A stretch of 61,979 nucleotides of DNA, the filler included, from Collodictyon triciliatum (taxonomy: Eukaryota): the NCBI GenBank assembly GCA_043381765.1. It is 12 parts of 12 records of this genome, joined end to end, with 100 filler letters (N's around TTAATTAATTAA, not from the genome) between each part and the next. Parts side by side here need not be neighbours in the genome. Positions count along the whole stretch, not along the records: positions 5,008 to 9,910 come from JBHJMP010005657.1; 11 more parts are not named here. One strand, 5' to 3'. Made by a program: the position numbers and the translations under genes. Below are positions 217 through 61,752 of the stretch, piece after piece. The notes below the pieces were generated by a model, which worked only from the letters and a program-made list of their open reading frames with translations, did not search any database and was not told the DNA's origin. How positions within the stretch are numbered: the stretch's first letter is position 1; each line of letters starts with the position of its first letter.

Positions 217-3200
217 CTGAGTCATTGTGGGGTCTATGTACTTCACAGATAAGAAATTTTCGAAGCAGCCCTCCATTAACCGATTTGTGTCTCTGTAAGG
301 TAAAAAATAATAATAATAAAAAATTTCTCAGTAAAAGTGAATTAGCAAATTCACATATGGTGGCTTTTTCTTCTCACCCAGCAGAGAAAATGCTGTCATA
401 TATACGCTCGTGGATTGATTCCTTCTTTGAGTCTCTGGGTGATTCGTCTAACACATCGTGTAAATAAAGATTTTGAAGAATCAGAAAGAGGAATTGAACC
501 GAAAATAAAACAATACGACAAAGCCTGACAGTGGTGAGTTTTAATAGAAACAAAATACCTTTATATTGATTTCTGATATGAGAAAGAGAATATTGTATTG
601 CTGGTTTGCGGAAGATATCCTTCCAGATATCAAATTGCCCTCTTTTGATATCCTATTAATGGTATATTTATATATGGCCTGAATCTAGAATTTAAAAACC
701 AATCGCTGAAAACATGTTCAGATGGTACCTCAATATGCAAATTTGTAAATTGGTACCTTGTTCCCAATTCTCTTCTGAAGAAAATGTTTTCCATCCAAAG
801 AGATGTCATTATTTCTCAAAAACTGTAAATAAATATGAGTTCAGTACCTTGCAGAAACTAGATAAGTTAACCGGCCGTAAAAATTATCCAAACATATTTG
901 AATGCGCTTAGTTTTAAACCTTTTACACATCACAATAAAATAATATGTTATCTAGTGATATATTGCTTGATACCTGAAGCGTATTCAGACAAGAACGGAG
1001 ATCATTCTCTGAGAGCTCACATAATGCGATTAGATGTTGTAAGTCTGTTTTCAGTCCTTCGTGATGGCATATTTCCTAAATATCAATATATTACCAAGAT
1101 AAAGCTAAATTATTTGCTTTAAAATAATGAAAAATAAAAAAAAAGCCAATTATCTATTTCAAAAAAGTATCTCAATACTTGCAGCCTATTTGCCATTTTT
1201 GTTGTTGAGGTTCGATTCAAGGTAAAGTTCAAAGCAATCTGACGCAGAGGCCTTAAAGCAGGTACGAAGCTGGAAAAGTTGTTCATAATTAATAAATGCA
1301 CATTTCCTTCCCTTGAATCGAATAAAGGGAAAAAAATTAATAAATGCAAAGGTTATCAAAATATAATATTGTATCACATCGATGTTAATCTATACGCATC
1401 GTTGCAGATGGCGATTATAGGCTTTGTTATTTTTGCACCCCTGTTAGAAACTTTCTTACTGGATTTTACTCCATCACCCACTTTCGAATCTCTAAATCAC
1501 AAAAATAAACCTACATTAGATTTTGTACAGGAGATACGCGTATTCTCGCATAATAGCCATAACTGTCAAACCTATAAACATACCCGCTTGATTTTGATGA
1601 AGACTGTATCATATTTACAAGCATTTGGATAGCTCCCTTTTATTTTATTTTTAAACATATTTGTTAAAATTGTAAGGTGTTAATAATTTTCCATTTTTCC
1701 AGTTTCTTCCGTCACACATTGATGTTTTTTTCCAATATCCTTAATGATGTTTGAGTTGAACCTTTGTGCTACTGTCGTTGACAGCACCATCGATCTCATC
1801 CACTAATATGTTCAAGGGGGGAGGGGATGCGGTCATTTTAAATTAAATATTTAGCATATAAAATGTATTTTAAACTCACGAATGATTAGACTAGGTTTTT
1901 GAGCAGCAAATGAGCTCTTAATTTCCATGGCATTCATTATTTTGGTCTTGAGCGACTCAGATGTTTTGTCTTCGCTGTATTTGGATCGATTGGTTACTTA
2001 CATTGAAAACATTAAAAAAAAATTTTTCTCAAAAATGAAAAAGTCGTTTGTTTACTTACCTGGCATTTATTTCGATGGGAGTATATCCTGCATGTTTTGC
2101 AAGTATGTGTACAAGAGTGGTTTTACCAAGCCCTGGAGGCCCCGATAAAAGGATGATCTAAATTAGCCATTAACAAATGAAGAAATAAATAAATATCCGT
2201 AGTTCTTAACGAAACCATCAGTGAATTATTTCTCTTCTATAACCAATTGAGAAAAGAAATTACGGGATGGCAATCGATATGTTTATAATAGAAAAAAAAA
2301 CCTTTTTGATTGGGAAACCATCCTGCCCGATAAATGGTATCTCAGGTTTTTGAAAGAAGGGTTTATACTCTGAAAAAAAATAATTGATGTTAAATTTCCT
2401 CTATACATCTTTAAACTTGATGCACATATCGATACTCGTTTCAGAAAATCAACAAGATACACTAAACTACCTTTAGACCCTGGGACAAAGGCGGATTTTT
2501 TGTCAAATGCCATTTTTGGTGCATATGAACTGGAATTTGTTCTGGCTATTCAAAATGAGGCAAAAGGACGTTGATCAATAATGTGCATCGGCCCATATTT
2601 TATCATCATTCTTAATGTCGAATCGTATAAGTTGGAAAGGCTTGGCTTCGACACCTCAGATTATGTAGTTCATTTCTTTTCACAATTATCCCGCCTTATA
2701 GTGATAATAGTTTCGTTTGTTTTCCCTTATACTCGAAAGGACAGAATCATGTATTATTATTGCATATTTATTTTTACATGGAGGATTGAACGGACGGGAA
2801 AACACAGGGCCATCCCATGACTTAATCCATCTCAAAATTTCGCGATTAGTATTCTAGATAATAATTTTTTTTTTAAAAAAAGTACTTACACTAGTCATAC
2901 TATATACATAAAGAGGACTAATATGACTTCCCCAGTGTTCTATGTGCAAAATGAAACTCTGAAGGACTAACTTCATCACTCAGAAGGTCCATAAAAGTCA
3001 TTGGTCTGTATTTATCGACCCAAAGCTTATCCTCTACTGGTCTATATACCGAGGTATTGTGCATTTGGCTTTATTTAATTAAATAAATTGACGCGTTTGA
3101 GACGAGATTGCAACTGTTTCTTGGACGAAATCCTATACTCCACTTAAAAAAAATAAAAACAAAATCAGAATCATGAAGTAGAGAGCCACGTACCTTTGCT

Positions 3201-4907: not shown

Positions 4908-5007
4908 NNNNNNNNNNNNNNNNNNNNNNNNNNNNNNNNNNNNNNNNNNNNTTAATTAATTAANNNNNNNNNNNNNNNNNNNNNNNNNNNNNNNNNNNNN
5001 NNNNNNN
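4908..5007. other. Artificial contig linker N-TTAATTAATTAA-N (stops in all six frames)
   Basis: Same 12-mer between N runs at 4952, 9955, 14958, 19968, 24970, 29970, 34970, 39968, 49304, 54300 and 59296. Contigs are ~4.9 kb and appear size-sorted. Confidence 0.98.
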
Positions 5008-5120
5008 GAAACAAAGAAACAAAGAAACAAAGAAACAAAGAAACAAAGAAACAAAGAAACAAAGAAACAAAGAAACAAAGAAACAAAGAAACAAAGAAAC
5101 AAAGAAACAAAGAAACAAAG
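5008..5120. repeat. (GAAACAAA)n microsatellite
   Basis: Tandem octamer at contig start. Confidence 0.95.
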
Positions 5121-5212
5121 AACTAAAGAACCAAAGAAACAAACACCACACATAAATACTGATTGTCCTCTAAAACACCAGAGAACACTTACCAGGCGAG
5201 CCACGACGAAGC

Positions 5213-7939
5213 ATGCTCGAGAGCACGATGGCAAGTGAAGGCAGCGAAAAAAATTCCAATATTGAGGCTGACCAAGACACAGCGAACAAGTGTGATATTG
5301 TAACCGCACAGCTCTCTGTGGGGCTCTCTCCGAGTTCAAAGAGAGATGGAGTTGTAAGTAAAAGTTGGAGGTATTTAGATTGGGAAAGATTTCAATGTGA
5401 TACGCAAGGGAAACCACTCCTTTTCAGCAACAGGACGTACATACGCAAAGTCAGCCACCAAAATACATTCTCTGAACATTTGCTGCACAACCACCGGGTC
5501 AATAGCCTGTGTTGGACCTTCTTTGGGCGTTTCAGTGTGGTCATTCCAGTCTTTGCTATCTCAAGCCTTGTTTGGTGGTACATCCTAGCGACGGGTCACG
5601 GCGCGCAGACACACTCTTACTTTTTCGCTCTGACACTGCTCGCTCTCTTTATTTACACACTTTTCTTTATGATTTTTCAGGCTGATATCATTCATATCTC
5701 TCTCAAGCGCTTCGACACTATCTTTATCCTCATCAACATCGTCACAAACATGACCTCTCTGGCACAAAGTCTCCACTGGAGTTGGCTGGGAAGGCTCTGG
5801 GTTGTATTCATTGCATTTCTATACCTAAACTCCCTCATCATGGATGGTTATCCATTGAGTTTCCGCATAATTGAGCGACTTATCCGTCCCTATCTCGACC
5901 ATATTAACCTCCAGAACATCAATAAGCAATATTACAGTTGGAGCTACGATGATAATAATACACAAGTCTACTTGCTCAAATGGTTTGCTGTCCTCCAGGT
6001 AGCCATGAATCCTATTGTGGGCTCTCATAAGAACTTTCTCAAGCAACTTAGCTTTCGCTTGGTGGCTGGAGGAGTTACGTTGTGGTTTGCCATTTTCATT
6101 TCAATTTCGTGTCAGATGGTCTTATTTTTCCTGGTTGAAATGGATAAGGTAGTTGGGCATGACATCGTGGTTTTCGATGTTCTGTGGCTTCGGTTATCCA
6201 CTCAATTATTATTCCGCACCAGCACAATCAATATCGTTTTGTTCCTTCTGCGCCGCCTATGGACTTCTTATCGTAGGCCATTTGAAATGCTTTCAGTTCG
6301 CCAGCAGCTTATTTGTATTCCAGTTTTTAAAGAGTGGGAACATTATATAAAGTTCCTTCTACAGGAAATTCATGTTTCTTCCCCCATTGATTGCGTTACG
6401 TCTTCTCTACCACCACCACTACCATCTCCAACAGTATCAATGCCCGATTGCCCTAAGGAGCAGTACAACCACGTGGTAATACAAATTCCTCATGATGACC
6501 ACTATCCACCATCATTAGTGCAATCCCAAGAACATGGAGACAGCAAACAACCTTGCCAAGATGCAATCCAAATGTCAGAGAATGTGGACATGTCAAAATC
6601 TATTCGTCAACTGGGCTTATGTATTCCAAATGCAATTGTAGAAATCGACAGTCATATGGCGGACCAGACCAAAATATCTTTGCCTCAACCTTTGGGTCTT
6701 TACTCCCAAAAACAGCACCAACCAATTCAACTCTACCAGCTGGGGTCCTCTCCTTCATCGATCCCTTTGGTAATGGACGAGTCAGCCTCTGTGACAGAAT
6801 CCAATTTTAATTTTGATTCTCAAAGTGAAAGTCATCCGGTACATCATCCATCCTCAAAAGAAAACACAAAAAAGTCTAAAAATGCAGTTTATGTGATTAA
6901 TAGGAATGCACAAGAACACGATAAAAAGGAAAACTTGAGTTCAAATAAAAAAAGCAATTCGTTCGTTCGTGAAAATGCCAACAAAAGTGCGAGATATTAC
7001 CTATTGGCATCAAACCCAAACTATATATTTGAATTCCAAGCGGATGAGGACTTACTATCAAGAATATTTGTACCCTCACAGGCACATAAGGTTCGCCAAT
7101 TCATTATCAAAATCGTTCCAATCAGCAGCGTGTTATGGTTGGTGGGGTCAGTGCTGTTTTTCGTCTCTTTCACAAATACCAGCCCAAAACTCTTTTGGTT
7201 GTACAACATATCTTTTGCCGCTGCTGCTCTTCATTACTTGATACTTTTCAGCCTTCACCACTATCGCATTGTGATGTTGGCGATGGCCAATTTTGATGCC
7301 TTTTATCTCCAAATGGTTAATATCACATTTTGCCTAACCATGGCCGCTTATCTCCGATGGGATGGTGTCAGAGTATACACAGGCCTTTTGAATTTTTTTT
7401 TCGCCTTCTCCTTTGTCATTGTTCATGACGCATCTCCAAAAAGTTTGAAATCTACTCAAAAGAAATTCAGAAGTTACGTGAATCTCGGGCACAGCATAGA
7501 CAAAATCCCTCACCGGTTTTTGGAAATGGCTTACTTGATATGTATAAATTATTTCCCTTCCAACAAAATCCTGCATGAATCATTGCTTCACCTGGTAAAA
7601 GAAAAGCAACCCAAAACACTTTTAGAGCACTTGAGAGAAGTTAAAAAAACAGTTCGCTTTGTTGACCTCGTGGATTGGTTGGCTTTCTCGTATGGGATGA
7701 TATTCATTACCTACATCAGTGTCCTTGTCGAGTTTGACATGGTTGCTGGGTCCGAGGACAGAGAAATCACACTAATAGGGAGATGGTACCTAAGTTCCAT
7801 TTTAAAGGCGTGCATTGTTAACACCTTCCTCCTACTGGGCAGAAGGGCGTTTTGGAAAATCTGGAATCCATTCCTTTGTCCATCACTCGAGAGAGGAATA
7901 CACAAATTCCCTCTCGTCAACGCCGTCATGGAATCTTAA
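5213..7939 (+). CDS. Intronless 908-aa multi-pass membrane protein with two homologous TM domains; function unknown
   Basis: Long uninterrupted ORF. Two hydrophobic blocks share motifs (KRFDTIFILINI / ANFDAFYLQMVNI; IMDGYP / VHDASP; INIVLFLLRRLW..YRRPF / VNTFLLLGRRAFW.IWNPF) and are separated by a Pro/Ser/Gln-rich linker. Confidence 0.85.
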   Translation: MLESTMASEGSEKNSNIEADQDTANKCDIVTAQLSVGLSPSSKRDGVVSKSWRYLDWERFQCDTQGKPLLFSNRTYIRKVSHQNTFSEHLLHNHRVNSLCWTFFGRFSVVIPVFAISSLVWWYILATGHGAQTHSYFFALTLLALFIYTLFFMIFQADIIHISLKRFDTIFILINIVTNMTSLAQSLHWSWLGRLWVVFIAFLYLNSLIMDGYPLSFRIIERLIRPYLDHINLQNINKQYYSWSYDDNNTQVYLLKWFAVLQVAMNPIVGSHKNFLKQLSFRLVAGGVTLWFAIFISISCQMVLFFLVEMDKVVGHDIVVFDVLWLRLSTQLLFRTSTINIVLFLLRRLWTSYRRPFEMLSVRQQLICIPVFKEWEHYIKFLLQEIHVSSPIDCVTSSLPPPLPSPTVSMPDCPKEQYNHVVIQIPHDDHYPPSLVQSQEHGDSKQPCQDAIQMSENVDMSKSIRQLGLCIPNAIVEIDSHMADQTKISLPQPLGLYSQKQHQPIQLYQLGSSPSSIPLVMDESASVTESNFNFDSQSESHPVHHPSSKENTKKSKNAVYVINRNAQEHDKKENLSSNKKSNSFVRENANKSARYYLLASNPNYIFEFQADEDLLSRIFVPSQAHKVRQFIIKIVPISSVLWLVGSVLFFVSFTNTSPKLFWLYNISFAAAALHYLILFSLHHYRIVMLAMANFDAFYLQMVNITFCLTMAAYLRWDGVRVYTGLLNFFFAFSFVIVHDASPKSLKSTQKKFRSYVNLGHSIDKIPHRFLEMAYLICINYFPSNKILHESLLHLVKEKQPKTLLEHLREVKKTVRFVDLVDWLAFSYGMIFITYISVLVEFDMVAGSEDREITLIGRWYLSSILKACIVNTFLLLGRRAFWKIWNPFLCPSLERGIHKFPLVNAVMES

Positions 7940-7984
7940 TTTTTTCCCCAACATATTCATCTATTGTTAGATGTTGAAGCATTT

Positions 7985-8043
7985 ATCTATTTACTCCACC
8001 CTTTGAATCGAATAAAGGAAAAAAAAATCTATTTACTCCACCC
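7985..8043 (+). mobile_element. Micro-retroelement copy 2 (25-nt insert, 17-bp TSD), just 3' of the 908-aa gene
   Basis: ATCTATTTACTCCACCC (7985-8001) + TTTGAATCGAATAAAGGAAAAAAAA + ATCTATTTACTCCACCC (8027-8043). Confidence 0.92.
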
Positions 8044-8992
8044 ATCCACATCCTGTTCTTCATAATATGTTTCTATTCTTTTCTTTATGAAAAAAAAATA
8101 TCTTCCGCTTAATACATTCTTGCCTGTTCTGAACCAAAGGCGGTCCAAGTCTGGTGTTTGTTGCTTTGCTTTTACCTTTGTTATCTATTTGATTTGATAT
8201 TCCATCAATCGATCTCATCTACCCAATAAACTGGGTCTATGTGAATCCCCCTAGAACGCTCCCACTATCGTGGCCAGCCAGTATACCCACCCATGCTCTG
8301 TTCAGGCTCGAGTGTCTTAATAGTTGCGAATGAAGGGGTCTGATAATGCCATCTTACCATGAAGCAAAAATCTGCCATCAATTCAGGTTGTTGTTTTGAC
8401 TCTTTTATCGATGGCTGTGTATAGGCTATACGCAAACAATCTGTTTCAAGAAACCAAAAGCTATGGAATCCAGGTCAATTATTTTAGTTTGGCCAATCTT
8501 AAAGAATTATTGATGGCAACAGATTGAGTAAATAAATAATACAGATAGGGAGTGCTTTCAAAAGACTATCTAAGAAGACGTATTGATATACCATGAAAAC
8601 AAAACTCCATCGTTTTGTGGTGTGGGCGTAGGTTCATGGGCACCCACCACCAGCAACAGCAGTATTTGTAATTTGCTATTGCCCGCTAAAAAAATAAACC
8701 AATCGTGTTTGATTTCCATATCGTTTTACTAAATTGCACTCTATCTCGGTGCAATATGCTTAATTTGAACGGAAAATGGAAAAAAAAAAGGCCTGTAATC
8801 TAGGTGTTGCAAGAGATACCGTCTCTTTGAAATCTGAGAATAAAGCATTCGGAGATAATGCAGCGAAGATTGTATCTTAAACCTATGTATTTATTTGATT
8901 GCTACAGTTTTTAGAATGTCCGAAACATTTTCAAGCTCTAGGCAGGCATGCACACATTCAAATACATATATTTGATAGATAGATAGATAGAC

Positions 8993-9045
8993 ACATGGAC
9001 GGACATTGAATCAGATAAAGGAAAAAAAAAGACATGGACGGACAT
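8993..9045 (+). mobile_element. Micro-retroelement copy 3 (variant core, 14-bp TSD)
   Basis: ACATGGACGGACAT (8993-9006) + TGAATCAGATAAAGGAAAAAAAAAG + ACATGGACGGACAT (9032-9045). Confidence 0.85.
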
Positions 9046-9851
9046 CTAAGAGAGTTGTGTGGATACCACCGGGTGGGGCGTGGACAATCCCAATGACGCC
9101 TCGCTGCGGCTTTGAACCTCCTAAGGCGCACACATTATTTGCGGCAAGTCGCATACCCAAAACGGAGTGTGTGACAACAAGTGACGTGTCCGGCGGTCAT
9201 GATTCACCATCCGCGCAACGGTCTGCGATTCCCTCTTCAGACAAATTTCTATGTAAGCTGACCCATATGTGGAACTCTACCGATTCCCACGGTTTGGTTT
9301 TCTTTCGCGAGCCAATTCCGTTACAGGCCGCTATGTGCGCAGATTCGTTTGTGAGAAGCCTTTGGTGGGGCCGCAGAGAGGATCAAAAAACAAGGCCTGA
9401 TATTTATTACATGGCGATGAAACATATGTGTGATGTGTGTGCCTGCACGTATATATGTGAGTAGGTGTGTGCGCATGAGAAGCAAATCTATGGTGAACCG
9501 ACAACTTAGTCGGGGTTGCTTTTGTTTGCGTGGACTCCGCCCTATTGAGGCCGTTGAGAAAATACGTGGCATATGAGAAAGAGAGGAAGAGAAAAAAGAT
9601 CTCGGGGGTGAAGGTCTGGGTCGCTTGGCATACTCGAAACCCTAGCATGGAGGCCTGATTCCCGAATATTGACCGCACCAAGTTCTGCCTCGTGGAGCGC
9701 GGCTTTATCTTGCCCCTCCAATAACTTATCGCCCTCCTTCCCTCGATTTCTTGAGCAAGGAAGTTACCGCCCAACATGAACCTCTCGTGTATGCCCTTTA
9801 AAATTGGCTGCTATCGTTGTTTTTCATGCCGCACATCCCAGGCTTATTGCA

Positions 9852-9887
<36 letters not shown>

Positions 9888-10010
9888 CTTTTTTTTTTGT
9901 GTTGTTTTTTNNNNNNNNNNNNNNNNNNNNNNNNNNNNNNNNNNNNNNNNNNNNTTAATTAATTAANNNNNNNNNNNNNNNNNNNNNNNNNNNNNNNNNN
10001 NNNNNNNNNN

Positions 10011-12185: not shown

Positions 12186-12462
12186 AATAAAAACAAAAAC
12201 AAAAAACAGAAAAACAAAAAACAAAAACAAAAAGCAAAAAACAAAAAGCAAAAAACAAAAAGCAAAAAACAAAAACAAAAAACAGAAAACAGAAAACAGA
12301 AAAACAAAAAACAGAAAAACAGAAAAACAGAAAACAAAAAACAGAAAACAAAAAAACAGAAAACAAAAAACAGAAAACAAAAAACAGAAAACAAAAAACA
12401 AAAACAAAAACAAAGAAAACAAAGAAAAAACAAAAACAGAAACAAAAACGAAAAAAACAAAA
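12186..12462. repeat. Compound (AAAAAC/AGAAAAC)n low-complexity repeat between the divergent MORN5 and TRIM-like genes
   Basis: Direct observation. Confidence 0.9.
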
Positions 12463-12546: not shown

Positions 12547-14511
12547 ATGTCCAGCCAGCGCCCTTCCTTCGCCTCTCTCATCTCGCTGGAGCTCCAATGC
12601 CCGGGCTGCACCAACGCCAATCCCGCAGATAACCCCACCAAGTGCGGCCACTTCTTCTGTGACGCTTGTGTCACCGTCATAACAAACTTGCCGGGAGACA
12701 GCAGCACTCCCAAGTGCCCCATGTGCGCAGAAGACTTTCAGGTTTTGTCGACCGAGAAAAAAGAGGACTACAAACAACTCTTGAAGCCCATCCATAGCTC
12801 GCTGAAGGGTGACTCGCACTGTGCAACCTGCTCGAGCATGGCCCCTTCGGTGGTGTGTACCTCGGACTGTGGGTTCTTGTGCCTATATTGCAACGAAAAG
12901 CATCAGACAGGCCATCAAACACTGTACGACTCTTATCGCGCAGCATCGTGCATAGACAAGACTCTATACTTTTGATTGGTCCAAGCCTCGATTGCTCTAA
13001 TCCTCATCTTCTTGATTTTTTTATTCGATTCTCTTGATTGTCAATAGCTCGGTGTTTCAGTGCGACCTGAATGAAATGATAATACCAGGCAAGTGTATTT
13101 GTCACTCGCGCCCAATCACTCATGTGTGCGCGGTGTGTTGGGGAAATGTCGGAAAGTGCGCTCTATGCATGGAAAGTAGCCTGGACTGTAGCCATCATCA
13201 CCCACATACAAAGATTGGAAGTATCGGAGCCTGCAATACCACATGCGGAGCGATGCTTGGTATCATCATTGAAAAGCGCGAGCAAATAGATGAATCAATA
13301 GAGAGCATCGATACGGAGTTGAAGAAGGTAATATATATATATATTTATAAAAAAAAAAACATCTCCTTCGGATTTCAGGATTGTAGCATAATATCGTGAG
13401 CTTTTTGCTTCTATGATATTCCTTTCCGAGATATATTAGCATATTGCGACAAGGGATGTTGCTTCAAACATAAAAATGATTGAAATAAAAGAAAAGAGCA
13501 TTGAATGGTTTAATTATTTTCGTCTTGGCAGGTTGACGGCCAGCTATTTGATATCCAGAGGAAAATACAAGATTACTGCAATAAATTTGAAGAGAAAAGC
13601 TTATTCAAAAAGGATGAGAAAATGAAAGAGGTACTATTTTCTTTTTGAGCAGGGGAAGTAGTATTCTGAAGGTGGATTGAAGTTCTAATTATCAAGTTAT
13701 ATATAAACAGCTGGAAGAAATAGCACAAGAGTCAAAAAAGGGACACCAAGACCAGAAGAAGAAGCTTCACTTGCGCATCCAGGTGATTAAACATATGGAG
13801 AAAATCTTAAAAATAGCGACAAGGATCGAATTTGGTCAGGAAACAAATGCAAGACTGGCGAAGTACAAGAAGGTGGTCGATGAGATAGGAACGTGGGGAA
13901 TTGAGCTGATTTCGCCAATCAAGATAGAGATAGAAATCCCAGACGAGCCGGGTGACATCGTGCGTAAGTCTTATGTCAACAATATGAAGAAGATCATTGC
14001 AGTGTCGATCTTTGTAGCATTTGTATCCATCGCCATCGGATACTTGGTATACTACGGATTATCTACGAAGCTACAGGATACAGAGATTCAATATTATGTC
14101 GTAAGCAAGGACTTAAATATGACTCTTGCTGACGTCAGGAAGCTGTCTGAACTTTTATCAGCTGAAAAGCACCACCTGAAAGAAGTAAAGGATTTTGTCG
14201 AACAGCTTCAACAAGAATTGTTAGAATGGAAACAGAAACATGAAGACATGGAGAAAATGCTTCATGAAGAGAAACAATCTTCCAATTTAAAGTCATCTAA
14301 GTTGGATGAACTCATGATCAAGAATAATCAGTTGGAAGATATGCTCAGGAAAGAAAGAGAGTATAGTTCTTCGACCTTGGAACAGTTAACTAAATGTAAT
14401 CTCAAAATTAAAAAAATTAGCACTGAGCGCTCGAGTTCTACAGAGTTCCATCCATTCAAAAAAGTTATCATTTCCTTGGCTCTCTTTTCGATTGCATTTA
14501 TCACCTCTTAG
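12547..14511 (+). CDS. RING / B-box / coiled-coil (TRIM-like) protein with TM helix, second coiled coil and hydrophobic C-terminus, 4 exons
   Basis: RING CPGC..KCGHFFCDAC..CPMC; B-box-like CATC..VCTSDCGFLCLYCNEKH and C.CH....HVCAVC...C.LC. Exons ~12547-12923, 13048-13327, 13532-13630 and 13711-14511 join in frame through GT-AG. TM IIAVSIFVAFVSIAIGYLVYYGL; C-terminus SSSTEFHPFKKVIISLALFSIAFITS*. Confidence 0.8.
13010..13039 (-). mobile_element. Short, degenerate micro-retroelement copy (8-bp direct repeat) in intron 1 of the TRIM-like gene
   Basis: TCTTGATT + TTTTTATTCGATTC + TCTTGATT. The reverse complement of the insert is GAATCGAATAAAAA. Confidence 0.55.
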
Positions 14512-15013: not shown

Positions 15014-15157
15014 CATAAAAAAGAAACATAAAAAAGAAACATAAAAAAGAAACATAAAAAAGAAACATAAAAAAGAAACATAAAAAAGAAACATAAAAAA
15101 GAAACATAAAAAAGAAACATAAAAAAGAAACATAAAAAAGAAACATAAAAAAGAAAC
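15014..15157. repeat. (CATAAAAAAGAAA)n 13-bp minisatellite
   Basis: About 11 tandem copies at contig start. Confidence 0.95.
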
Positions 15158-15264
15158 AAGAAATAAGTAAGATTTTTTTATTTTTATAAATTATGCAAAA
15201 GACAAAAACAAAACTCAGATCATAATTTTCAAATATTTCAGAATCCGGATCTGAAACATCAACG

Positions 15265-20253: not shown

Positions 20254-23200
20254 GGGCAAGTTGAAGAAATTGAGGCCTACCTTACACAAGCAACGGACCA
20301 AAACGGTCTTTTTCCACATCAAAACGTTAAACGTATTCTCCAAAATTTGTCCGCAGCTTTCTCTTCTCAAACAATTCATAGATCGAGATTGCCAGGATTT
20401 CATAGTAAAAATACAATATCATTAAATTAAAAAACTACATAAAATAGGAAATACAAAAACACTTCAAGCCCCCTATAGAATAAGGTTGCAAAAAACTATA
20501 ACGAAAGTCATCTACCCACTGCTTTACATTCAAGATTTCAACGGAAAGCCATATGAGACAGTGATATACAAAGGAAGCACAGTATTGCCATTTATTGATA
20601 GATGTATAGACGACAGCAACGACAGCAAGCCTACATGTGGCTGGCAATTCGACTCGTCGACAGGGAGACCCATTAAAAACAGCCAGGTTTCTAAGATTCT
20701 CTTCATTCATGAAAAACAGTTACGCATGGGGTTGCAAATAATATAAATAACCAAAGAAAAGATTAAAATATAAAATAAGTAGAAAATATTGCTTTAGGGT
20801 TTCTGTTGCTCTTGCTCTTTATCTGGAATTATATACAATAGCAATATAAGGTAAGTTTTTTTTTTTATACTGATAGGCCCAAAAACTATGTTGTGGTAAA
20901 AAGTGAAAACACTCTCAACATACTTGCAAATATCCATTCTAAGAGACGATAAGCGGTATGAGGTATTCAATAAATAAAATTTAAATAGAGCTGAGGATGC
21001 GTGTTCGTTCAACAGCAAGCAGTCTGCTCATTGTCTTAGATGGAGCTCCTTATGGTTCTCTGGTTACAGAGCTCTGGGTTATCAGCTTTTCTTTGAAATC
21101 AAAATCAGTGTTGACATACCTGTTCTTCTGAGTGGCGAGGAATATGGAGTGATGACTGTATACATTTCTATTTTTAATAGATACATGTTAATATAAATAA
21201 GAATGAAAAGATAATGCCTCTTGTTATGGTAATCTAGTTATGTTGCGGGAATTATCACTTTGAAAATTTTTTTCACATAAATTGCTCTGTTTAAAAAACT
21301 GAAGGAAGTTCTTAAAGTTGGCCCGACATCCAGAGCAGCTGTTACATCTAACAAGCAAGTTGCTGTCAAATTGAATGGAGACTTTGCTTCGTACACGAGC
21401 ATACCCGATTATTCGTCAAAAATCTTACTAGTTCCCTCCAGACCAAGCACCGACGCCAGAGTAAAGGTATGTTCTCTTGCTAGATCTTTGAATCGAATAA
21501 AGGAAAAAAAAATGTTCTCTTGCTAGAAAAATGGAAAAAATTCAGTTAAAAACTAAAATTTTGCTGAAAGAATCTCATCAACATATCAACTCAAAACAAT
21601 ACCCAAGGATTGCAGCAAAAAATGAATCAATACCTGAAAAAAACTATACGTTTTACCAGAATTATGCAGATAACAGTCTTTTAGTAAGTGAATCATCTGT
21701 GACTATGGACGGTTCAGAATGTGATAAGATAGGGATTAGCTTTACAGCCTTCCAGACACAAGGAAATAAGTGTGGACAAGCTTTGCAAAGTTGTTTAAAT
21801 AATCAGCCAGAAGATATCCTGAATGTAGGCACACCAGTTTTTTTTGTTATATGTTGTAGGAATGATATTCTAATTTTAAACAACAGGCTGACATGGCCTT
21901 GCTTGCAGATGGAAAGATACCAAAATATTTGGTATCAGGACAAGAACTTTTCTTTGAGAAAACGAATGTGATGATTTTTGAGACTATGATTTTCAAATAT
22001 TACAATTATTACAATGATATACTTATACATTTTTGCAAAAACAAATGAATGAAAATTGAAAATGTAGATTGGTACAAAAACGAAGCTGCAGTTAGTTAGA
22101 GAATTAAATACAGATATGACAAGTGTGGTAACTCTGAGCATAAATGCTGATTCCATAAAGTTCATAAAGAATAGGTAAACAAATTTTAAACAAAGGCAAA
22201 ATCTGATAAATATGGCACTAATATTGTAAAATATTATCAAGACATGAATTAAAGATTTACTAAAGTAATTGGATTTTGCAATATTTTGGGAAGGTCGGAG
22301 GGAAAGATTATCGCTGTAAAAGTCCTAACATTCGAAGCAATGTCGAATGAAGGAAGCGCATTTGTAACCGTACAAAATACAGGCCAAATTGATGCAGAAT
22401 ATATCGTAAGCTATTAGTTTCATACCATTCATTTTGTCATTGTAATTTTTCACATAAATTTTGGTTGGTTAGGTAAGTATACACGATTGCACAGATGGAG
22501 TCGTGCCAATTAATTCTGTGACCCGGACGATTAAGGCACAACAGGTTTCTCTTAAAACATTTCAAACTGGGGATTATGGCATTATTTTACGAAATGATGA
22601 GTATATTTGAAGGTGATTGAGGTGACCTTTGGCATGCGAGTTGATGCATCGGATGGGGCGGTATACATATGCACAGGTAAGCGTAAGTTACCTTATCAAT
22701 GACCCTGCACTAGTTCTTTCTAATGAAGCACACCGCCAAAGTTACACTCCAGGATTCGGAGTATTCAGTAATCGATCAAGAGGATATGGTCTTCAACACC
22801 ACAGCAAAAGTCACTGAAACGTCGCAGGTTTGCAAATAAAATATGCACTGCGAGGGGTGGAAGGCATTTCAGCAATGGAGTTATCTTGACACGAATTACA
22901 GGGAGGAGACGGAGCCGGAGGTTCTCCGACAGAGGGAGGAGATGGACCGAAAGAGAAGTTGACATGCGATGATTATTGCCCGAAATTGTAAGTTTCCATA
23001 GCGTAATACCACAACAGCCACATCTCCAACTTAGTTTCTTTCATGTTGATGCTCGCATAACGAGCGAACGTGTACAATGTCCAATCCCAAACCAAAACCA
23101 CCGAATGCATAACATAGCTACGACTTGCCCTGTTTCATGGTGAAAAGTTGCTGGGGGAAACTGGCAAAGACGTTTTCAGCGTTCATCGGTCTCCTTCTGG

Positions 23201-25359: not shown

Positions 25360-29709
<4,350 letters not shown>

Positions 29710-42775: not shown

Positions 42776-44635
<1,860 letters not shown>

Positions 44636-44887
44636 GTTGTGTGAAAGAGCCTAATGCGGGCGAGAGTCTTGCAGGTCAAAGGGTGCTTGTTGATTGACAC
44701 TTTGTATGCGGTGGTTGTGTGCTTGTGTTGGGCGTGGTATTATAGAAGCCTTGGCACTCAAAAGCTGTTGGTTTGCGTATGAGTTGACTAAGGGAACGCT
44801 TTGGGAGAGAAAAAAACAACAAGAAAACAACAAGAAAACAACAAGAAAACAACAAAACAAAAAAAAAGTATAACAAAGGGCTGCAGA

Positions 44888-57300: not shown

Positions 57301-59251
57301 TCCTTATCATTCCAAGTACCTTGTGGGCATTCGGTGCATGATGTGTTCCCATATGAGCCGGAGTTTGAGTTGAATGTGCCTTTTGCACAAGCATAGCATG
57401 ATTGTGAGTCTTTTGTGATTCCTTCTTTTTGATAGTATCCTGGTGAGCATAAGCTGCACAATGCGCTTCTTTCTGAGCTGTAGCTTCCACTTGGACATGA
57501 AATGCATGATGATTGATTGAATGAACCAGTTTTGTTGTTGAATGTACCCGCTGGACATGATGTGCATGATGCTTGACCATCCTTATCATTCCAAGTACCT
57601 TGTGGACATTCAATACATGATTCGTTTCCATATGAGCCGGAGTTTGAGTTGAATGTGCCTTTTGCACAAGCATAGCATGATTGTGAGTCTTTTGTGATTC
57701 CTTCTTTTTGATAGAATCCTGATAAGCATAAACTGCATGATATACTTCTTTCTGAGCTGTGGCTCCCATTTGAACATGAAATACATGATGATTGATTATA
57801 TGAGCCAGTTTTATTGTTGAATGTACCAGCTGGACATGATGTGCACGATGCTTGACCATCTTTATCATTCCAAGTACCTTGTGGACATTCAATACATGAA
57901 TTGTTTCCGTATGAGCCGGATATTGAGTTGAATGTGCCTTTTGGACAAGCATAGCATGATTCTGAGTCTTTCATTATTCCATCTTTTTGGTAGAATCCTG
58001 ATAAACACAAGCTGCACAATGCGCTTCTTTCTGAGCTGTAGCTTCCATTCGGACATGAAATGCATGATGATTGATTGAATGAACCAGTTTTGTAGTTGAA
58101 TGTCCCAGCTGGACATGATGTGCATGATGCCTGACCATCTCTATCATCCCAAGTACCTTGTGGACATTCAATGCATGATTTGTCTCCATATGAGCCGGAG
58201 TTTGAGTTGAATGTGCCTTTTGGACAAGCGTTGCATGATTCTGAGTCTTTTTTGATTCCTTCTTTTTGGTAGAATCCTGATAAACATAAACTGCATGAAG
58301 CGCTTCTTTCGGAGCTGTAGCTTCCGTTCGGACATGATATACATAATGATTGATTACATGAGCCAGTTTTGTTGTTAAATGTTCCAGCTGGACATGACAT
58401 GCATGATGCTTGACCATCTCTATCATTCCAAGTACCTCGTGGACAATCGATACATGATTTGTTTCCATATGAGCCGGAGTTAGAGTTGAATGTGCCTTTT
58501 GCACAAGCATAACATGATTTTGAATCTTTTTTGATTCCCTCTCTTTGATAGAATCCTGATAAGCATAAACTGCATGATATACTTCTTTCTGAGCTGTAGC
58601 TTCCGTTTGGACATTCAATACATGAATCACCAAATGAGCCCGTTTTATTGTTGAATGTACCAGCTGGGCATGATGTGCATTCATCTTTGTAATTACTCCC
58701 AAAAGTCCCTTGTGGACATTCAATACATGATTCGTTGCTTGTTGAACCAAATCTTGGATTGTAAGTTCCATCGATACATTTTATACATGTCTTTTGGCCA
58801 GATATTGGATTGTAAGAACCAGGTTGGCAAAGTTCACATGTGGATTCTCCTGAATTTGAAGAGAATTTCCCTTGGGGACACAATTGGCAACTGCTAACAT
58901 CGGTTGATGCGACATTTGGATTAAAAGTCCCGGCTGGGCATTTTTCGCAGGTAGTTGATTTTGTTTTATTTGAGTAAGTACCCGTGGAACATGGATTACA
59001 AAACTGCTTTCCTTTCTCACTCATGAAAAACCCAGCAGGACAGTCAAAACAACTCGACTTTCCATCAACACTATTGTATGTCCCGAGCTCACATAGAAGA
59101 CAGGATGAGTTTCCAGCACCTCGAATATTTGGATTGAATGTTCCTGCTGGACAAGAAGTACACGACCTATCGCCCTCATTACTGTAAAATCCAGCAGTGC
59201 AATTATTACATGAAATTTGACCTTTAATATTATTAAATGTTCCAGCCTCGC
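54356..59251 (-). CDS. Giant Cys-rich surface/receptor-like protein (Ephrin_rec_like / GCC2_GCC3-type repeats); open at both contig ends
   Basis: More than 1600 codons without a stop. About 13-14 tandem 93-aa (279-bp) units C..CPAGTFN..TGS.NQSSC..CPNGSYS...C..C.SGFYQ...C..CP.GTFN...C..CPQGTWND. Ends in CPEGFICDG....PGYW. Confidence 0.92.
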
Positions 59252-59647
59252 NNNNNNNNNNNNNNNNNNNNNNNNNNNNNNNNNNNNNNNNNNNNTTAAT
59301 TAATTAANNNNNNNNNNNNNNNNNNNNNNNNNNNNNNNNNNNNNNNNNNNNTTTTAGTTGTTTTTTTTTCCCTTTTCCACTAGTTTAAGTTCTTCTAATA
59401 AAATAAAAAGTTTTTTAATTTTTTTTTTTTTTCAAAAAAAAAAAAAAAACAATAGAGGAGCGGATTTTCACAGTTCAATAGTATCTTTGAATTTATGTAT
59501 CAGATCCAGAACCAAAACGTAATTTCGATAATATTTCACGCTTTATATATATATATGACATTATATGATTTTCTTTATATTACACATTTAAACTGAAGCT
59601 TAATTATTAAGCTACTTGAAGTTCTGATTTACTTTATCGGATTTTAG

Positions 59648-61752
59648 GTAGATATGGTTATGACATCGGTAACCGGGCACCTAATGTCAATTGACTTTCC
59701 TGATTCATATAGAAGCTGGACAGCAAATGATCCATCTGTCCTCTTCACTGCACCCATAGAAAAGAAAGTTTCGCATGTGAAGAAGCCTTTTCATTTTAAT
59801 TATTAACCAAGACCTTCACTCCACGGTTTCTTTTTTTAATTCCGAACCTTTTACTTTAATTTTCTTATAATTCTTGTTTTATGTCTCTGTATGCAAAGGA
59901 TAAAGAGCCTCTCCAAAAAACCCTAACTGTCGAGGCTATCAAAGCACATTGGTTGATCCTCTGGTTGGATTGTGACCGAGAGGGAGAAAACATCGCTTAT
60001 GAAGTTATAGATATATGCAAAAAGTATTTTCTTAATTTCTCTTTTTATTTAATCGTACATTCAGCTATCCTTTACATATACTTACTAAATCGAAACAGCT
60101 GAAAATATAGGTGGAATGAATTTTAAGAAAATATTTCAAATAATAAAAACTTTACTTACTGTCAAACAGAGCTAATCCTAGACTAAGAATTTTGAGAGCA
60201 AAGTTTTCTGCGCTTGTCTCGCAGTAATTTGCTCTATCTCCGCATTTAATGATCCACAGTCACATATGATTTAAATATGTGCTCTTATTTCTTGCTTTTT
60301 TGGACTTCAATTAATATTTCAAATGTTGAATTATGAATCCATATCTGGACCTAAAATATTTTTGATACTGTGAAGGAAGAAGCGTCTCACTTTACTACTA
60401 GAGAGTAATAAATAGGTAATCCAAAAATCCTTCCATAAAAAACTATTAGGGATATTCACGCAGCATGCCAAAGGTTAGGGCTACCAAATGAGTTGGATTC
60501 TCTAGCTGTTGATGCAAGACAAGTACAATTAAATAAATATTCCCATGTTCGAATAAATGGAAAAAATGAGTGTTTATATCTCGCTTTTTCTTTTCTTTAT
60601 TTCTTGTAAACACTTAATCAATTGAAATTGATATACCACAGGAAATCGACCTCCGAATAGGTGCCGCTTTTACCAGGTTCCAGACACTCCGGATAAGACA
60701 TAAATATGATGGTGTACCAGATAGTGTTGTGAGCTATGGTAATTTGTTGCCTTCTAAAAGGAATATATCCAAGAGGAATCCATGTATCGTTTGATTTTCG
60801 TTATATTTTAAAAAAATTCATCCAAAGACAGAGAATTCAAGGCAATCTATTGTTTTATATATTTCCTTGTTTGTTACCAATATACTTTCAGCTAAAAATT
60901 GTTAAATGTAACTGATGCAGGACCATGTCAATTTCCTACTCTCGGTTTCATAGTGGAGCGATACTTAGCTCGAGAAAAATTTGTCTCAGAACCCTTCTGG
61001 TCCCTTAAAGCTACTGTGAAGTTTGTATTAAACACCTCAATCAAATCATTAGGATATTGTCTAAAGGAACTAGGTTTTTAGATCAGCACGAAATAATTTC
61101 GAATCAAAATAATATGTGGCACGTAGGAAATCTGACCTTGAAGGTGTTTTTTCCTGGACAAGAGGGAATTTATTCGATCGATTTTCCTGCTTAATATTTT
61201 ATGAGTTTTGCACACTCCAACCAATGGGGACAATTACAAAAGTTTTGGGAAAACCAACAAAGAAGCTGTGAGTAGTACTAAAAAGTAAATAAAAAGTGAT
61301 GAGCAAACGTCATGGCTCCATAATAAGTGAAAAGCAACACCGCCCTCTACGATCCATGCACCAATTTTTTATATTAGAAAGCCACTTCCACTTACCACTG
61401 TAGAACTTCAGAAAAAGTGCTCAAAATATCTGAGATTTGCATCTGAACATACTATGAAAGTAAGGACTGAAAACATTTTTTATTTATTTATTTTAGTCTT
61501 TATATTTTTCTTTTATTCGATTCAAAACATTAAGTTTCAATTTAGTATAAATTCATTTATAAAGCACAAAATATATTCACTTTTTTTGGCTCATAAAAAT
61601 AAAAATATGTGCTAGATAGCTGAGGATTTGTATCAGAAAGGATTCATCAGTTACCCTCGCACTGAAACAGACAGATTTGCACCGAGTATGAATTTAAAAG
61701 ATTTTGTAAACCACCAAACAGCTAGCTCACAGTGGGGAAACTACGCAACTGG
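59648..61752 (+). CDS. TOP3A: DNA topoisomerase III alpha, internal exons, partial at both ends
   Basis: [26 protein letters not shown] (TOPRIM), [48 protein letters not shown] and [17 protein letters not shown] (catalytic Tyr). Confidence 0.95.
61505..61531 (-). mobile_element. Degenerate micro-retroelement-like copy in a TOP3A intron
   Basis: TTTTTCTTTTATTCGATTCAAA. A possible 8-bp direct repeat AAAACATT lies at 61470 and 61524. Confidence 0.45.

What the first reader, a model, noticed from the sequence alone, without database searches (positions are those of the whole stretch)
7985..8043. Abundant ~25-nt micro-retroelement family with 14-17 bp target-site duplications
Seen: the core (T)CTTTGAATCGAATAAAGG(A)7-10 occurs on both strands in unrelated contigs. 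Seven copies sit between perfect direct repeats whose sequence differs at every site: 1287-1348, 7985-8043, 8993-9045, 21469-21527, 25570-25625, 50999-51055 and 53511-53563. Weaker copies lie at ~13010, 27521, 49415 and 61505. That is roughly one clear copy per 8 kb, none inside a recognised exon. Read in element orientation, all seven TSDs begin with A, and six are preceded by T. Known: a 3' A-tail, variable ~15-bp TSDs and T|A nicking are hallmarks of target-primed reverse transcription by APE-type non-LTR retrotransposons. Inference: most 5' ends fall within a few nt of CTTTG and the A-run length is tight. This fits a defined ~25-nt RNA, far smaller than typical SINEs, or a LINE with a strong RT stop, better than random truncation. 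I do not recognise the family.
Basis: partly seen in the sequence, partly recalled or inferred. Interest (0 to 1): 0.9.

Follow-up and report, generated by a model that had tools for sequence, protein, structure and literature searches.

The report
Ultra-short tail copies of a LINE
The repeated ~25-base inserts are real retrotransposon insertions, but they are the extreme 3' tips of a larger L1-like element rather than a separate tiny element; what is unusual is how short and uniform they are.

Summary
Eight inserts carrying the core ...GAATCGAATAAAGG plus A7-11 sit between 14-17 bp direct repeats that differ at every site. That is about one per 7.5 kb of this mosaic of ~5-kb samples from an unidentified eukaryote. 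The 13-mer core with up to 1 mismatch occurs 10 times against 0.08 expected. An independent metagenome contig spans one insert with both repeats, so it is not an assembly artefact.

It is not a stand-alone micro-element. One window copy (49402-49504) runs 62 nt back. A metagenome contig, L001, carries the same tail preceded by a ~92-nt 3'UTR and the C-terminus of a reverse-transcriptase ORF (zf-RVT). Full-length distant relatives have endonuclease, RT and zf-RVT domains and best match human LINE-1 ORF2p.

These are therefore 5'-truncated L1-like LINE copies made by target-primed reverse transcription. The odd part is the length. Six of the eight have only 13-19 templated nt, and a motif-free scan found none shorter and none from another family. 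This suggests a preferred very early stop, but n is small. The kind is known; the degree is unusual.

The parts
7985..8043 (+). Tail copy. TSD 7985-8001 and 8027-8043 (17 nt, perfect). Insert 8002-8026 has 17-18 templated nt plus A8.
   Evidence: An independent contig (run X2, record 8) spans 7933-8083 with 1 other letter and no gap.
1287..1348 (+). Tail copy. TSD 14 nt, perfect. The 34-nt insert has 29 non-A nt. Its first ~11 nt do not match the parent 3'UTR, and it carries the variant CCTTG...AAAGGG.
8993..9045 (+). Tail copy with two substitutions in the core (TGAATCAGATAAAGG). It has A9 plus one G, and a 14-nt perfect TSD (16-18 nt if an AC slip is allowed).
21469..21527 (+). Tail copy. 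TSD 16 nt, perfect. 18 templated nt, plus one extra T at the 5' junction that the parent lacks.
25570..25625 (-). Tail copy. TSD 17 nt, perfect. 18 templated nt and an A-run of 7.
49402..49504 (-). Longer copy. 62-63 templated nt that match the parent 3'UTR, an A-run of 11, and a 16-nt TSD with 1 mismatch.
   Evidence: blastn to L001 gives 98.7% over 75 nt. Alignment A1.
50999..51055 (+). Tail copy. TSD 16 nt, perfect. 17-18 templated nt and an A-run of 10.
53511..53563 (-). Tail copy. TSD 16 nt, perfect. 13-14 templated nt (TAATCG...) and an A-run of 8.
13010..13039 (-). Possible very short copy: GAATCGAAT plus an A-run between 8-nt repeats. Weak.
   Evidence: It falls below the TSD threshold of the scans.
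27521..27536 (-). Core-like match with 2 mismatches and a short A-run, no TSD. Either an old copy or chance.
61505..61527 (-). Core match with 1 mismatch, followed by a degenerate A-rich stretch. There is a possible 8-9-nt repeat (AATGTTTT) about 37 nt downstream. Probably an older copy.
52620..52636 (+). Core match with 1 mismatch, no A-run and no TSD. Unresolved.

Best explanation
The inserts are extremely 5'-truncated copies of the 3' end of an L1-like non-LTR retrotransposon (LINE), made by target-primed reverse transcription.

Proposed mechanism: the element's endonuclease nicks the target at a loose T|A site. The freed T-ended 3' end primes on the short A-tail of the LINE RNA. The reverse transcriptase copies the tail (...CTTTGAATCGAATAAAGG) and in most events stops after only 13-19 nt. 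The short cDNA is joined to the upstream target end, often with 1 nt of overlap. The staggered second nick leaves a 14-17 bp target-site duplication.

Shown: the insert anatomy; collinearity with a 3'UTR plus RT-ORF C-terminus; presence of one insert in independent data.

Inferred: the endonuclease and RT steps, and that the clustering of 5' ends reflects a preferred early stop or a minimum viable cDNA length rather than chance.

The confidence given is for the whole statement. That the inserts are LINE-derived TPRT products I hold at about 0.9; that the early stop is non-random at about 0.6-0.7.
For: 1. Anatomy. There are 8 of 8 structures with an A-run of 7-11, locus-specific TSDs of 14-17 nt and both orientations. 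T precedes the TSD in 7 of 8 (P about 0.018).

2. Parent. A 20-nt pattern reaching 4 nt upstream of the usual 5' end found one metagenome contig, L001. It carries the same tail plus A10, a ~92-nt 3'UTR, and an ORF C-terminus with one frameshift. That ORF matches Pfam zf-RVT at E 1.5e-7, 32.4 bits, above the 27.5 cutoff.

3. Bridge. The window copy at 49402-49504 is 98.7% identical to L001 over 75 nt (alignment).

4. Family. phmmer against 1.84 billion representatives gave 14 hits. Seven were fragments at 59-98% identity. Four were full-length proteins of 1226-1275 aa at 29-38% identity. All four have Exo_endo_phos and RVT_1 domains, and three also have zf-RVT. P0009 best matches human LINE-1 ORF2p at 3.4e-57, against 9e-24 for R2. 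P0018, a close relative of the tail-bearing ORF, aligns to P0009 residues 950-1201 at 8e-24.

5. Not an artefact. Contig record 8 of run X2 spans 7933-8083 without a gap. Five further contigs (X1 records 3 and 4; X2 records 9, 10 and 11) match only 8001-8031/33 with unlike flanks, so they are other copies.

6. Non-random length. Templated lengths are 13, 15, 17, 17, 18, 18, 29 and 62. The motif-free scan found no shorter insert, no A-only insert and no insert of another family, with 0 hits in the control. Under a memoryless truncation model fitted to the mean, P(6 or more of 8 in 13-19) is about 3e-4 and P(none at 12 or below) is about 0.016. The interval was chosen after seeing the data.

7. 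Protein-level hint of a ninth case. P0013 is a LINE ORF fragment interrupted by the peptide expected from an antisense tail copy, between a duplicated EREIN. Its DNA was not seen.
Against: The parent's endonuclease and RT domains were not seen on the same molecule as the tail. Only the ORF C-terminus was seen, and the domain architecture rests on relatives at 29-38% identity.

L001 comes from a metagenome and may not be the window's own species.

No empty-site allele was observed. Only one contig bridged one site, and the raw-read run X6 laid 0 reads.

With n = 8, the length clustering is fragile and the test was post hoc.

No RNA structure explains a stop. The 96-nt 3' end folds no better than shuffles (z 0.11), and the 26-nt tail has an MFE of 0.

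The 11 nt at the 5' end of copy 1287-1348 do not match the parent 3'UTR. They remain unexplained: a second subfamily or a template switch are both possible.
Confidence: 0.65

Rival explanations
1. These are ordinary random 5' truncations of the same LINE. The cluster at 13-19 nt is sampling noise from 8 events, and genome-wide the lengths form a smooth, steeply decaying distribution.
For: Longer copies exist (29 and 62 nt in the window, at least 1 kb in L001). The 5' ends are not identical. No structure predicts a stop.
Against: The motif-free scan would have found inserts shorter than 13 nt or made only of A, and it found none. Six of 8 fall in a 7-nt interval, with geometric-null P about 3e-4 post hoc. 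No LINE coding remnant was found in 59.8 kb, with no tblastn hit below E 0.1. Of the three other-locus contigs whose upstream sequence is visible (X2 records 9-11), the consensus before position 8001 is not the parent 3'UTR.
Confidence: 0.2
2. The template is a defined small polyadenylated RNA of ~25-30 nt, mobilised in trans by the LINE enzyme like a minimal SINE. It could be a processed or protected 3' fragment of the LINE transcript, or a separate transcript.
For: The 5' ends cluster tightly and the A-run is tight at 7-11. Two junctions carry a base that the parent lacks (T at 21485, T at 53547), as an RT running off a template end might add.
Against: The 5' ends spread over 13-19 nt rather than one position. 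Copies of 29 and 62 nt and the parent share the same tail. There is no tRNA or Rfam hit and no room for an internal promoter. No RNA data could be obtained.
Confidence: 0.12
3. The inserts are a library adapter or assembly artefact.
For: None found. The idea rests only on the uniform short sequence.
Against: An independent metagenome contig contains the insert with both TSDs. The inserts are flanked by locus-specific duplications. The tail is the natural 3' end of an RT-encoding ORF plus UTR.
Confidence: 0.01

Closest known systems
5'-truncated ('dead-on-arrival') copies of L1-superfamily LINEs made by target-primed reverse transcription
   Same: A-tail, variable TSDs of ~15 bp, a T|A-type nick site and 1-nt junction overlaps. 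The copies are collinear with the 3' end of an ORF2-type protein gene. Relatives of that protein carry APE, RT and a C-terminal Cys/His domain, and best match human L1 ORF2p.
   Different: The modal copy has only 13-19 templated nt plus A7-11. This is far below the hundreds of bases usual for L1 (recalled, not tested here). No intermediate or coding-length copy occurs in 59.8 kb. The A-tails are short and uniform.
Short (<=300 bp) retrocopies of mRNAs in the human genome (Terai et al. 2010, PMC2831318; abstract and outline read)
   Same: Very short retroposed 3' ends recognised only by the poly-A plus TSD signature. The authors propose that template RNA is truncated or degraded around reverse transcription.
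   Different: The parent here is the LINE's own transcript, not host mRNAs. The lengths are an order of magnitude shorter and clustered.
SINEs and tail-sharing LINE/SINE pairs
   Same: A short, abundant, non-coding unit that ends in the partner LINE's 3' tail and is inserted by its enzyme.
   Different: There is no promoter-bearing head, no tRNA, 7SL or 5S-like part, and no fixed 5' end. At 13-19 nt it is smaller than any SINE I know of (recalled).
Chimeric retrocopies from RT template jumps (e.g. Magnaporthe, PMC2104539; search listing and abstract start only)
   Same: This could explain copy 1287-1348, whose first ~11 nt are unrelated to the parent 3'UTR.
   Different: Only one such case here. 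The source of the extra 11 nt was not identified.

Membership tests
Non-LTR retrotransposon insertion by TPRT | 3' A-run directly abutting the downstream target copy | tested here: met
   8 of 8 copies have A-runs of 7-11. One copy has an extra G after the run.
Non-LTR retrotransposon insertion by TPRT | Target-site duplications of variable sequence and roughly constant length | tested here: met
   TSDs of 14-17 nt, with a different sequence at each of the 8 sites. Six are perfect over the full length, one is a 14-nt perfect repeat, and one has 1 mismatch. The reversed control gave 0 hits.
Non-LTR retrotransposon insertion by TPRT | Collinear with the 3' end of an RT-encoding parent | tested here: met
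   L001 carries zf-RVT ORF C-terminus, 3'UTR, the same tail and A10. The 62-nt window copy is 98.7% identical to it.
Non-LTR retrotransposon insertion by TPRT | Parent encodes an APE-type endonuclease and a reverse transcriptase | tested here: inconclusive
   Only the ORF C-terminus was seen on the tail-bearing contig. Exo_endo_phos and RVT_1 are present in 4 of 4 full-length relatives at 29-38% identity.
Non-LTR retrotransposon insertion by TPRT | Empty-site alleles or orthologous empty sites | tested here: inconclusive
   One bridging contig showed the filled site and none showed an empty one. Coverage was 5-8 of 30 bins per run, and the raw-read run laid 0 reads.
L1 superfamily | ORF2 with N-terminal APE, central RT and a C-terminal Cys/His domain, with closest similarity to L1 ORF2p | tested here: inconclusive
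   Met for the distant relative P0009 and for the C-terminal domain of the parent. No phylogeny against reference LINE clades was possible. ORF1 was not seen.
SINE | Internal Pol III promoter head derived from tRNA, 7SL or 5S | tested here: not met
   No tRNA and no Rfam family in the window. The inserts have only 13-19 nt before the A-run.
Processed pseudogene / short mRNA retrocopy | Parent is a host protein-coding mRNA | tested here: not met
   The parent sequence upstream of the tail is a LINE ORF2 C-terminus and its UTR.
Stringent-type LINE tail (3' stem-loop recognised by the RT) | Conserved, stable 3' stem-loop | tested here: not met
   The 96-nt 3' end has z 0.11 against shuffles. The 26-nt tail has MFE 0 kcal/mol.

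The most novel reading that the evidence does not exclude
The main product of this LINE is a ~25-nt micro-insertion, not a copy of itself. Either its RT aborts at a fixed point ~17-19 nt after leaving the A-tail (an initiation-to-elongation checkpoint of TPRT recorded in the genome), or only an RNP-protected 3' fragment of the RNA survives as template. On this reading the genome has been seeded with AATAAA-plus-A-run cassettes about every 7.5 kb. These would be the shortest recurrent retroposed unit described, and they are invisible to standard repeat annotation.
Probability: 0.3. Interest if true: 0.6.

Novelty: new member of a known kind. Interest (0 to 1): 0.4.

Why it matters
If the sampled pieces are representative, tail-only insertions occur about once per 7.5 kb, which is more than 10,000 per 100 Mb. 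They would be the main footprint of retrotransposition in this genome, yet they fall below the length thresholds of usual repeat annotation.

Each insert adds an AATAAA hexamer and an A-run. One lies 45 nt downstream of the stop of a 921-codon ORF, in the same orientation. The inserts could therefore affect 3'-end formation and seed microsatellites.

The perfect TSDs and near-identical cores imply a recently active L1-like element in a freshwater microbial eukaryote. The clustered 5' junctions offer a natural record of where TPRT aborts.

Tried and rejected
- Whole genome of the window: not held, so no assembly-wide census was possible.
- RNA holders: 'no RNA holder listed', so expression could not be examined.
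It was repeated on the single piece 5008-9910. The raw-read run X6 laid 0 reads, and no joints or gaps were seen, so there is no information on empty sites beyond one filled contig.
- Hairpin idea (CTTT...AAAG closing a loop as an RT recognition site or stop): rejected, with tail MFE 0 and 3'UTR z 0.11.
- Tail 20-mer in viral contigs (2 loci) and genome contigs (9 loci): all are chance matches. None has the upstream CTT or a TSD. The two viral hits lie inside a 277-aa ORF with a repeated Lys-rich motif.
- The search for homologous proteins with 'longer' lengths: none at E <= 0.001. The exhaustive phmmer search found the relatives instead.
- Cluster look-up gave no names or organisms. The Atlas search on a Fringe-like window ORF gave mixed eukaryotic phyla, so the organism was left unidentified.
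- Parent remnants in the window: no RT motif in context, no tblastn hit below E 0.1 with 23 LINE-related proteins, and blastn of L001 hit only the tails.
- Literature: six searches found no report of this motif (0 papers for the 13-mer) or of a LINE family dominated by copies shorter than 30 nt. This covers only the held library. Dfam and Repbase could not be consulted, and supplements were not opened.
- A freshwater cryptomonad genome paper (PMC12747079, passages read) mentions LINE classes but nothing on this feature. No link to the window is claimed.

Full report
**What the window is.** The window is not one locus. It consists of 12 pieces, mostly ~5 kb, joined by N44 / 12-letter / N44 spacers, plus a few larger N gaps. 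Non-N sequence totals 59,775 bases at about 38% G+C. Long standard-code ORFs with RING, HMG-box, LRR and Fringe-like domains mark it as eukaryotic. No whole genome is held for it. The only public runs that hold words of piece 5008-9910 are freshwater or lake metagenomes, at shares of 0.05-0.15. I left the organism unidentified.

- At 7985-8043 a 17-nt sequence occurs twice, and between the two copies lies TTTGAATCGAATAAAGG plus A8.
- The 13-nt core with up to 1 mismatch occurs 10 times against 0.08 expected, and 0 of 100 shuffles reach 10. With up to 2 mismatches it occurs 16 times against 3.1.
- I also ran a scan that does not use the motif. It looks for an A-run of 5 or more followed, within 2 nt, by a 12-mer of adequate complexity that recurs with up to 1 mismatch within 120 nt upstream. 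It returned 8 structures, all of this family, and none in the reversed-sequence control.
- So in this sample every poly(A)-plus-TSD event belongs to one family. There are no A-only inserts and no inserts shorter than 13 templated nt.
- A-runs are 7-11 and TSDs are 14-17 nt. T precedes the maximally extended TSD in 7 of 8 copies, or 8 of 8 if an AC slip in the 8993 repeat is allowed.

**It is not an artefact.** Logan contigs of three metagenome runs and raw reads of a fourth were laid on 5008-9910.
- One 151-nt contig (run X2, record 8) spans 7933-8083 with one substitution and no gap. The insert and both repeats are therefore present in independent data.
- Five further contigs (X1 records 3 and 4; X2 records 9, 10 and 11) match only 8001-8031/33, which is the element, and run on into unlike sequence. 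These are other copies.
- For the three contigs with visible upstream sequence (X2 records 9-11), the consensus before 8001 is not the parent 3'UTR. Most of them are therefore also short copies.
- No empty site was seen. Coverage was thin (5-8 of 30 bins per run), and the raw-read run laid nothing.

**The parent.** The 'weak' copy near 49415 turned out to be an eighth TSD-flanked copy that runs 62-63 nt upstream of the A-run (49402-49504, minus strand; 16-nt TSD with one mismatch).
- I scanned the metagenome collection with a 20-nt pattern that includes 4 nt of this extension. It gave one contig, L001 (1157 bp).
- Read on its minus strand, L001 ends in the same tail plus A10. Upstream lie about 92 nt of non-coding sequence and then an open reading frame with one frameshift. 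Its last part matches Pfam zf-RVT (PF13966) at E 1.5e-7 and 32.4 bits, above the 27.5 cutoff.
- The window's long copy is 98.7% identical to L001 over 75 nt. The short copies align to L001's last 21-37 nt.
- An exhaustive phmmer search with the 202-aa ORF piece found 14 proteins. Seven are fragments at 59-98% identity. One of these, P0015 (359 aa, a member of the 98% cluster), reads through without the frameshift.
- Four hits are full-length proteins of 1226-1275 aa at 29-38% identity. All four carry Exo_endo_phos and RVT_1, and three also carry zf-RVT.
- One of them, P0009, best matches human LINE-1 ORF2p among solved structures (3.4e-57 over residues 3-871), well ahead of R2 proteins at 9e-24.
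- P0018, a relative at about 60% identity to the tail-bearing ORF, aligns to the C-terminal 250 residues of P0009 at 8e-24.
- The tail is therefore the 3' terminus of an L1-like LINE. The endonuclease and RT domains of the very element that bears this tail were not seen. That step is inferred from relatives.

**What is unusual.** Templated lengths, from the 5' junction to the last G before the A-run, are 13, 15, 17, 17, 18, 18, 29 and 62 nt. The window holds no LINE coding remnant: no tblastn hit below E 0.1 with 23 related proteins, and blastn of L001 hits only the tails.
- Under a memoryless truncation model fitted to the mean, six or more of eight lengths within 13-19 has P about 3e-4. No length at 12 or below has P about 0.016.
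- The interval was chosen after seeing the data and n is 8, so this is suggestive only.
- The 5' ends are not identical. Four of six short junctions share 1 nt with the parent sequence, a microhomology. Two carry a base that the parent lacks.
- This pattern fits a zone of early termination followed by end-joining better than a single defined RNA end.
- Neither the 3'UTR (z 0.11) nor the tail (MFE 0) has predicted structure that would explain a stop or an RT-binding hairpin.
- There is a protein-level hint of a ninth event. P0013 is a LINE ORF fragment interrupted by the peptide expected from an antisense tail copy of the 17-18-nt class, between a duplicated EREIN. Its DNA could not be fetched.

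**Mechanism.** I propose target-primed reverse transcription by the LINE's ORF2 protein.
- The endonuclease nicks at a loose T|A.
- The freed end primes on a short A-tail.
- The RT usually synthesises only the last 13-19 nt of the RNA.
- The cDNA is joined to the upstream end, and a staggered second nick gives 14-17-bp TSDs.
- The reason for the very early stop is open. It may be enzyme-intrinsic abortion, template degradation around reverse transcription (as proposed for short human mRNA retrocopies; PMC2831318, abstract read), or a protected 3' RNA fragment.
- Copy 1287-1348 has 11 upstream nt unrelated to the parent UTR and a slightly different core (CCTTG...AAAGGG). It may come from a second subfamily or from a template switch (compare PMC2104539, listing only). 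This is unresolved.

**Comparison and verdict.** In kind this is a known thing: 5'-truncated LINE copies. It is not a SINE, since it has no promoter head and there is no tRNA or Rfam match. It is not a host-mRNA retrocopy either.
- What differs is the degree. The modal insertion is a ~25-nt tail, at about one per 7.5 kb, with perfect TSDs and near-identical cores that indicate recent activity.
- I found no report of this motif or of such a length distribution in six literature searches. Dfam and Repbase could not be checked.
- I rate it a new member of a known kind with an unusual truncation profile, and of moderate interest.
- The decisive test is an assembly-wide histogram of 5' ends. It could not be run here.

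Noticed in passing
window 4908-5007, 9911-10010 and ten further such sites: The window is a mosaic of pieces, mostly ~5 kb, joined by N44 / 12-letter / N44 spacers. The pieces are unrelated loci, so distances across spacers mean nothing.
   Followed up: yes
window 54300-59303 (-): One open frame of 1667 codons fills a whole piece. It consists of many Cys-rich repeat units, with recurring C..CP.GTFN-type motifs.
   Followed up: no
window 7937-8016: The tail copy at 7985-8043 begins 45 nt after the stop (7937-7939) of the 921-codon ORF 5174-7939, in the same orientation. Its AATAAA (8011-8016) could act as that gene's poly(A) signal.
   Followed up: no
window 1211-1222 (-): A 12-nt match (CCTTGAATCGAA) to the same CCTTG variant seen in copy 1287-1348. 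It lies ~90 nt away in inverted orientation, outside the TSDs, with no A-run. It may be an old copy, chance, or related to that copy's odd 5' end.
   Followed up: partly
window 8764-8790 (+): A weak tail-like stretch (85.7% over 28 nt to L001) followed by A10, with no TSD. Possibly a decayed older copy.
   Followed up: partly
protein P0013: A LINE ORF fragment carrying what looks like an antisense tail insertion (peptide IFFSFIQFK) between a duplicated EREIN. This would be a nested micro-insertion inside another LINE copy. The core CG appears as CA, consistent with CpG decay.
   Followed up: partly
window 5008-5126, 12189-12400, 15017-15158, 43036-44650 and elsewhere: Very frequent microsatellites and short-period repeats (8-nt and 13-nt periods, long T, A and dinucleotide runs), often at the ends of pieces.
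   Followed up: no
L002 1954-1973, L003 13819-13838: The exact 20-mer of the tail occurs in two related viral contigs, but inside a 277-aa ORF with a repeated Lys-rich peptide motif. It is a chance match, not an insertion.
   Followed up: yes
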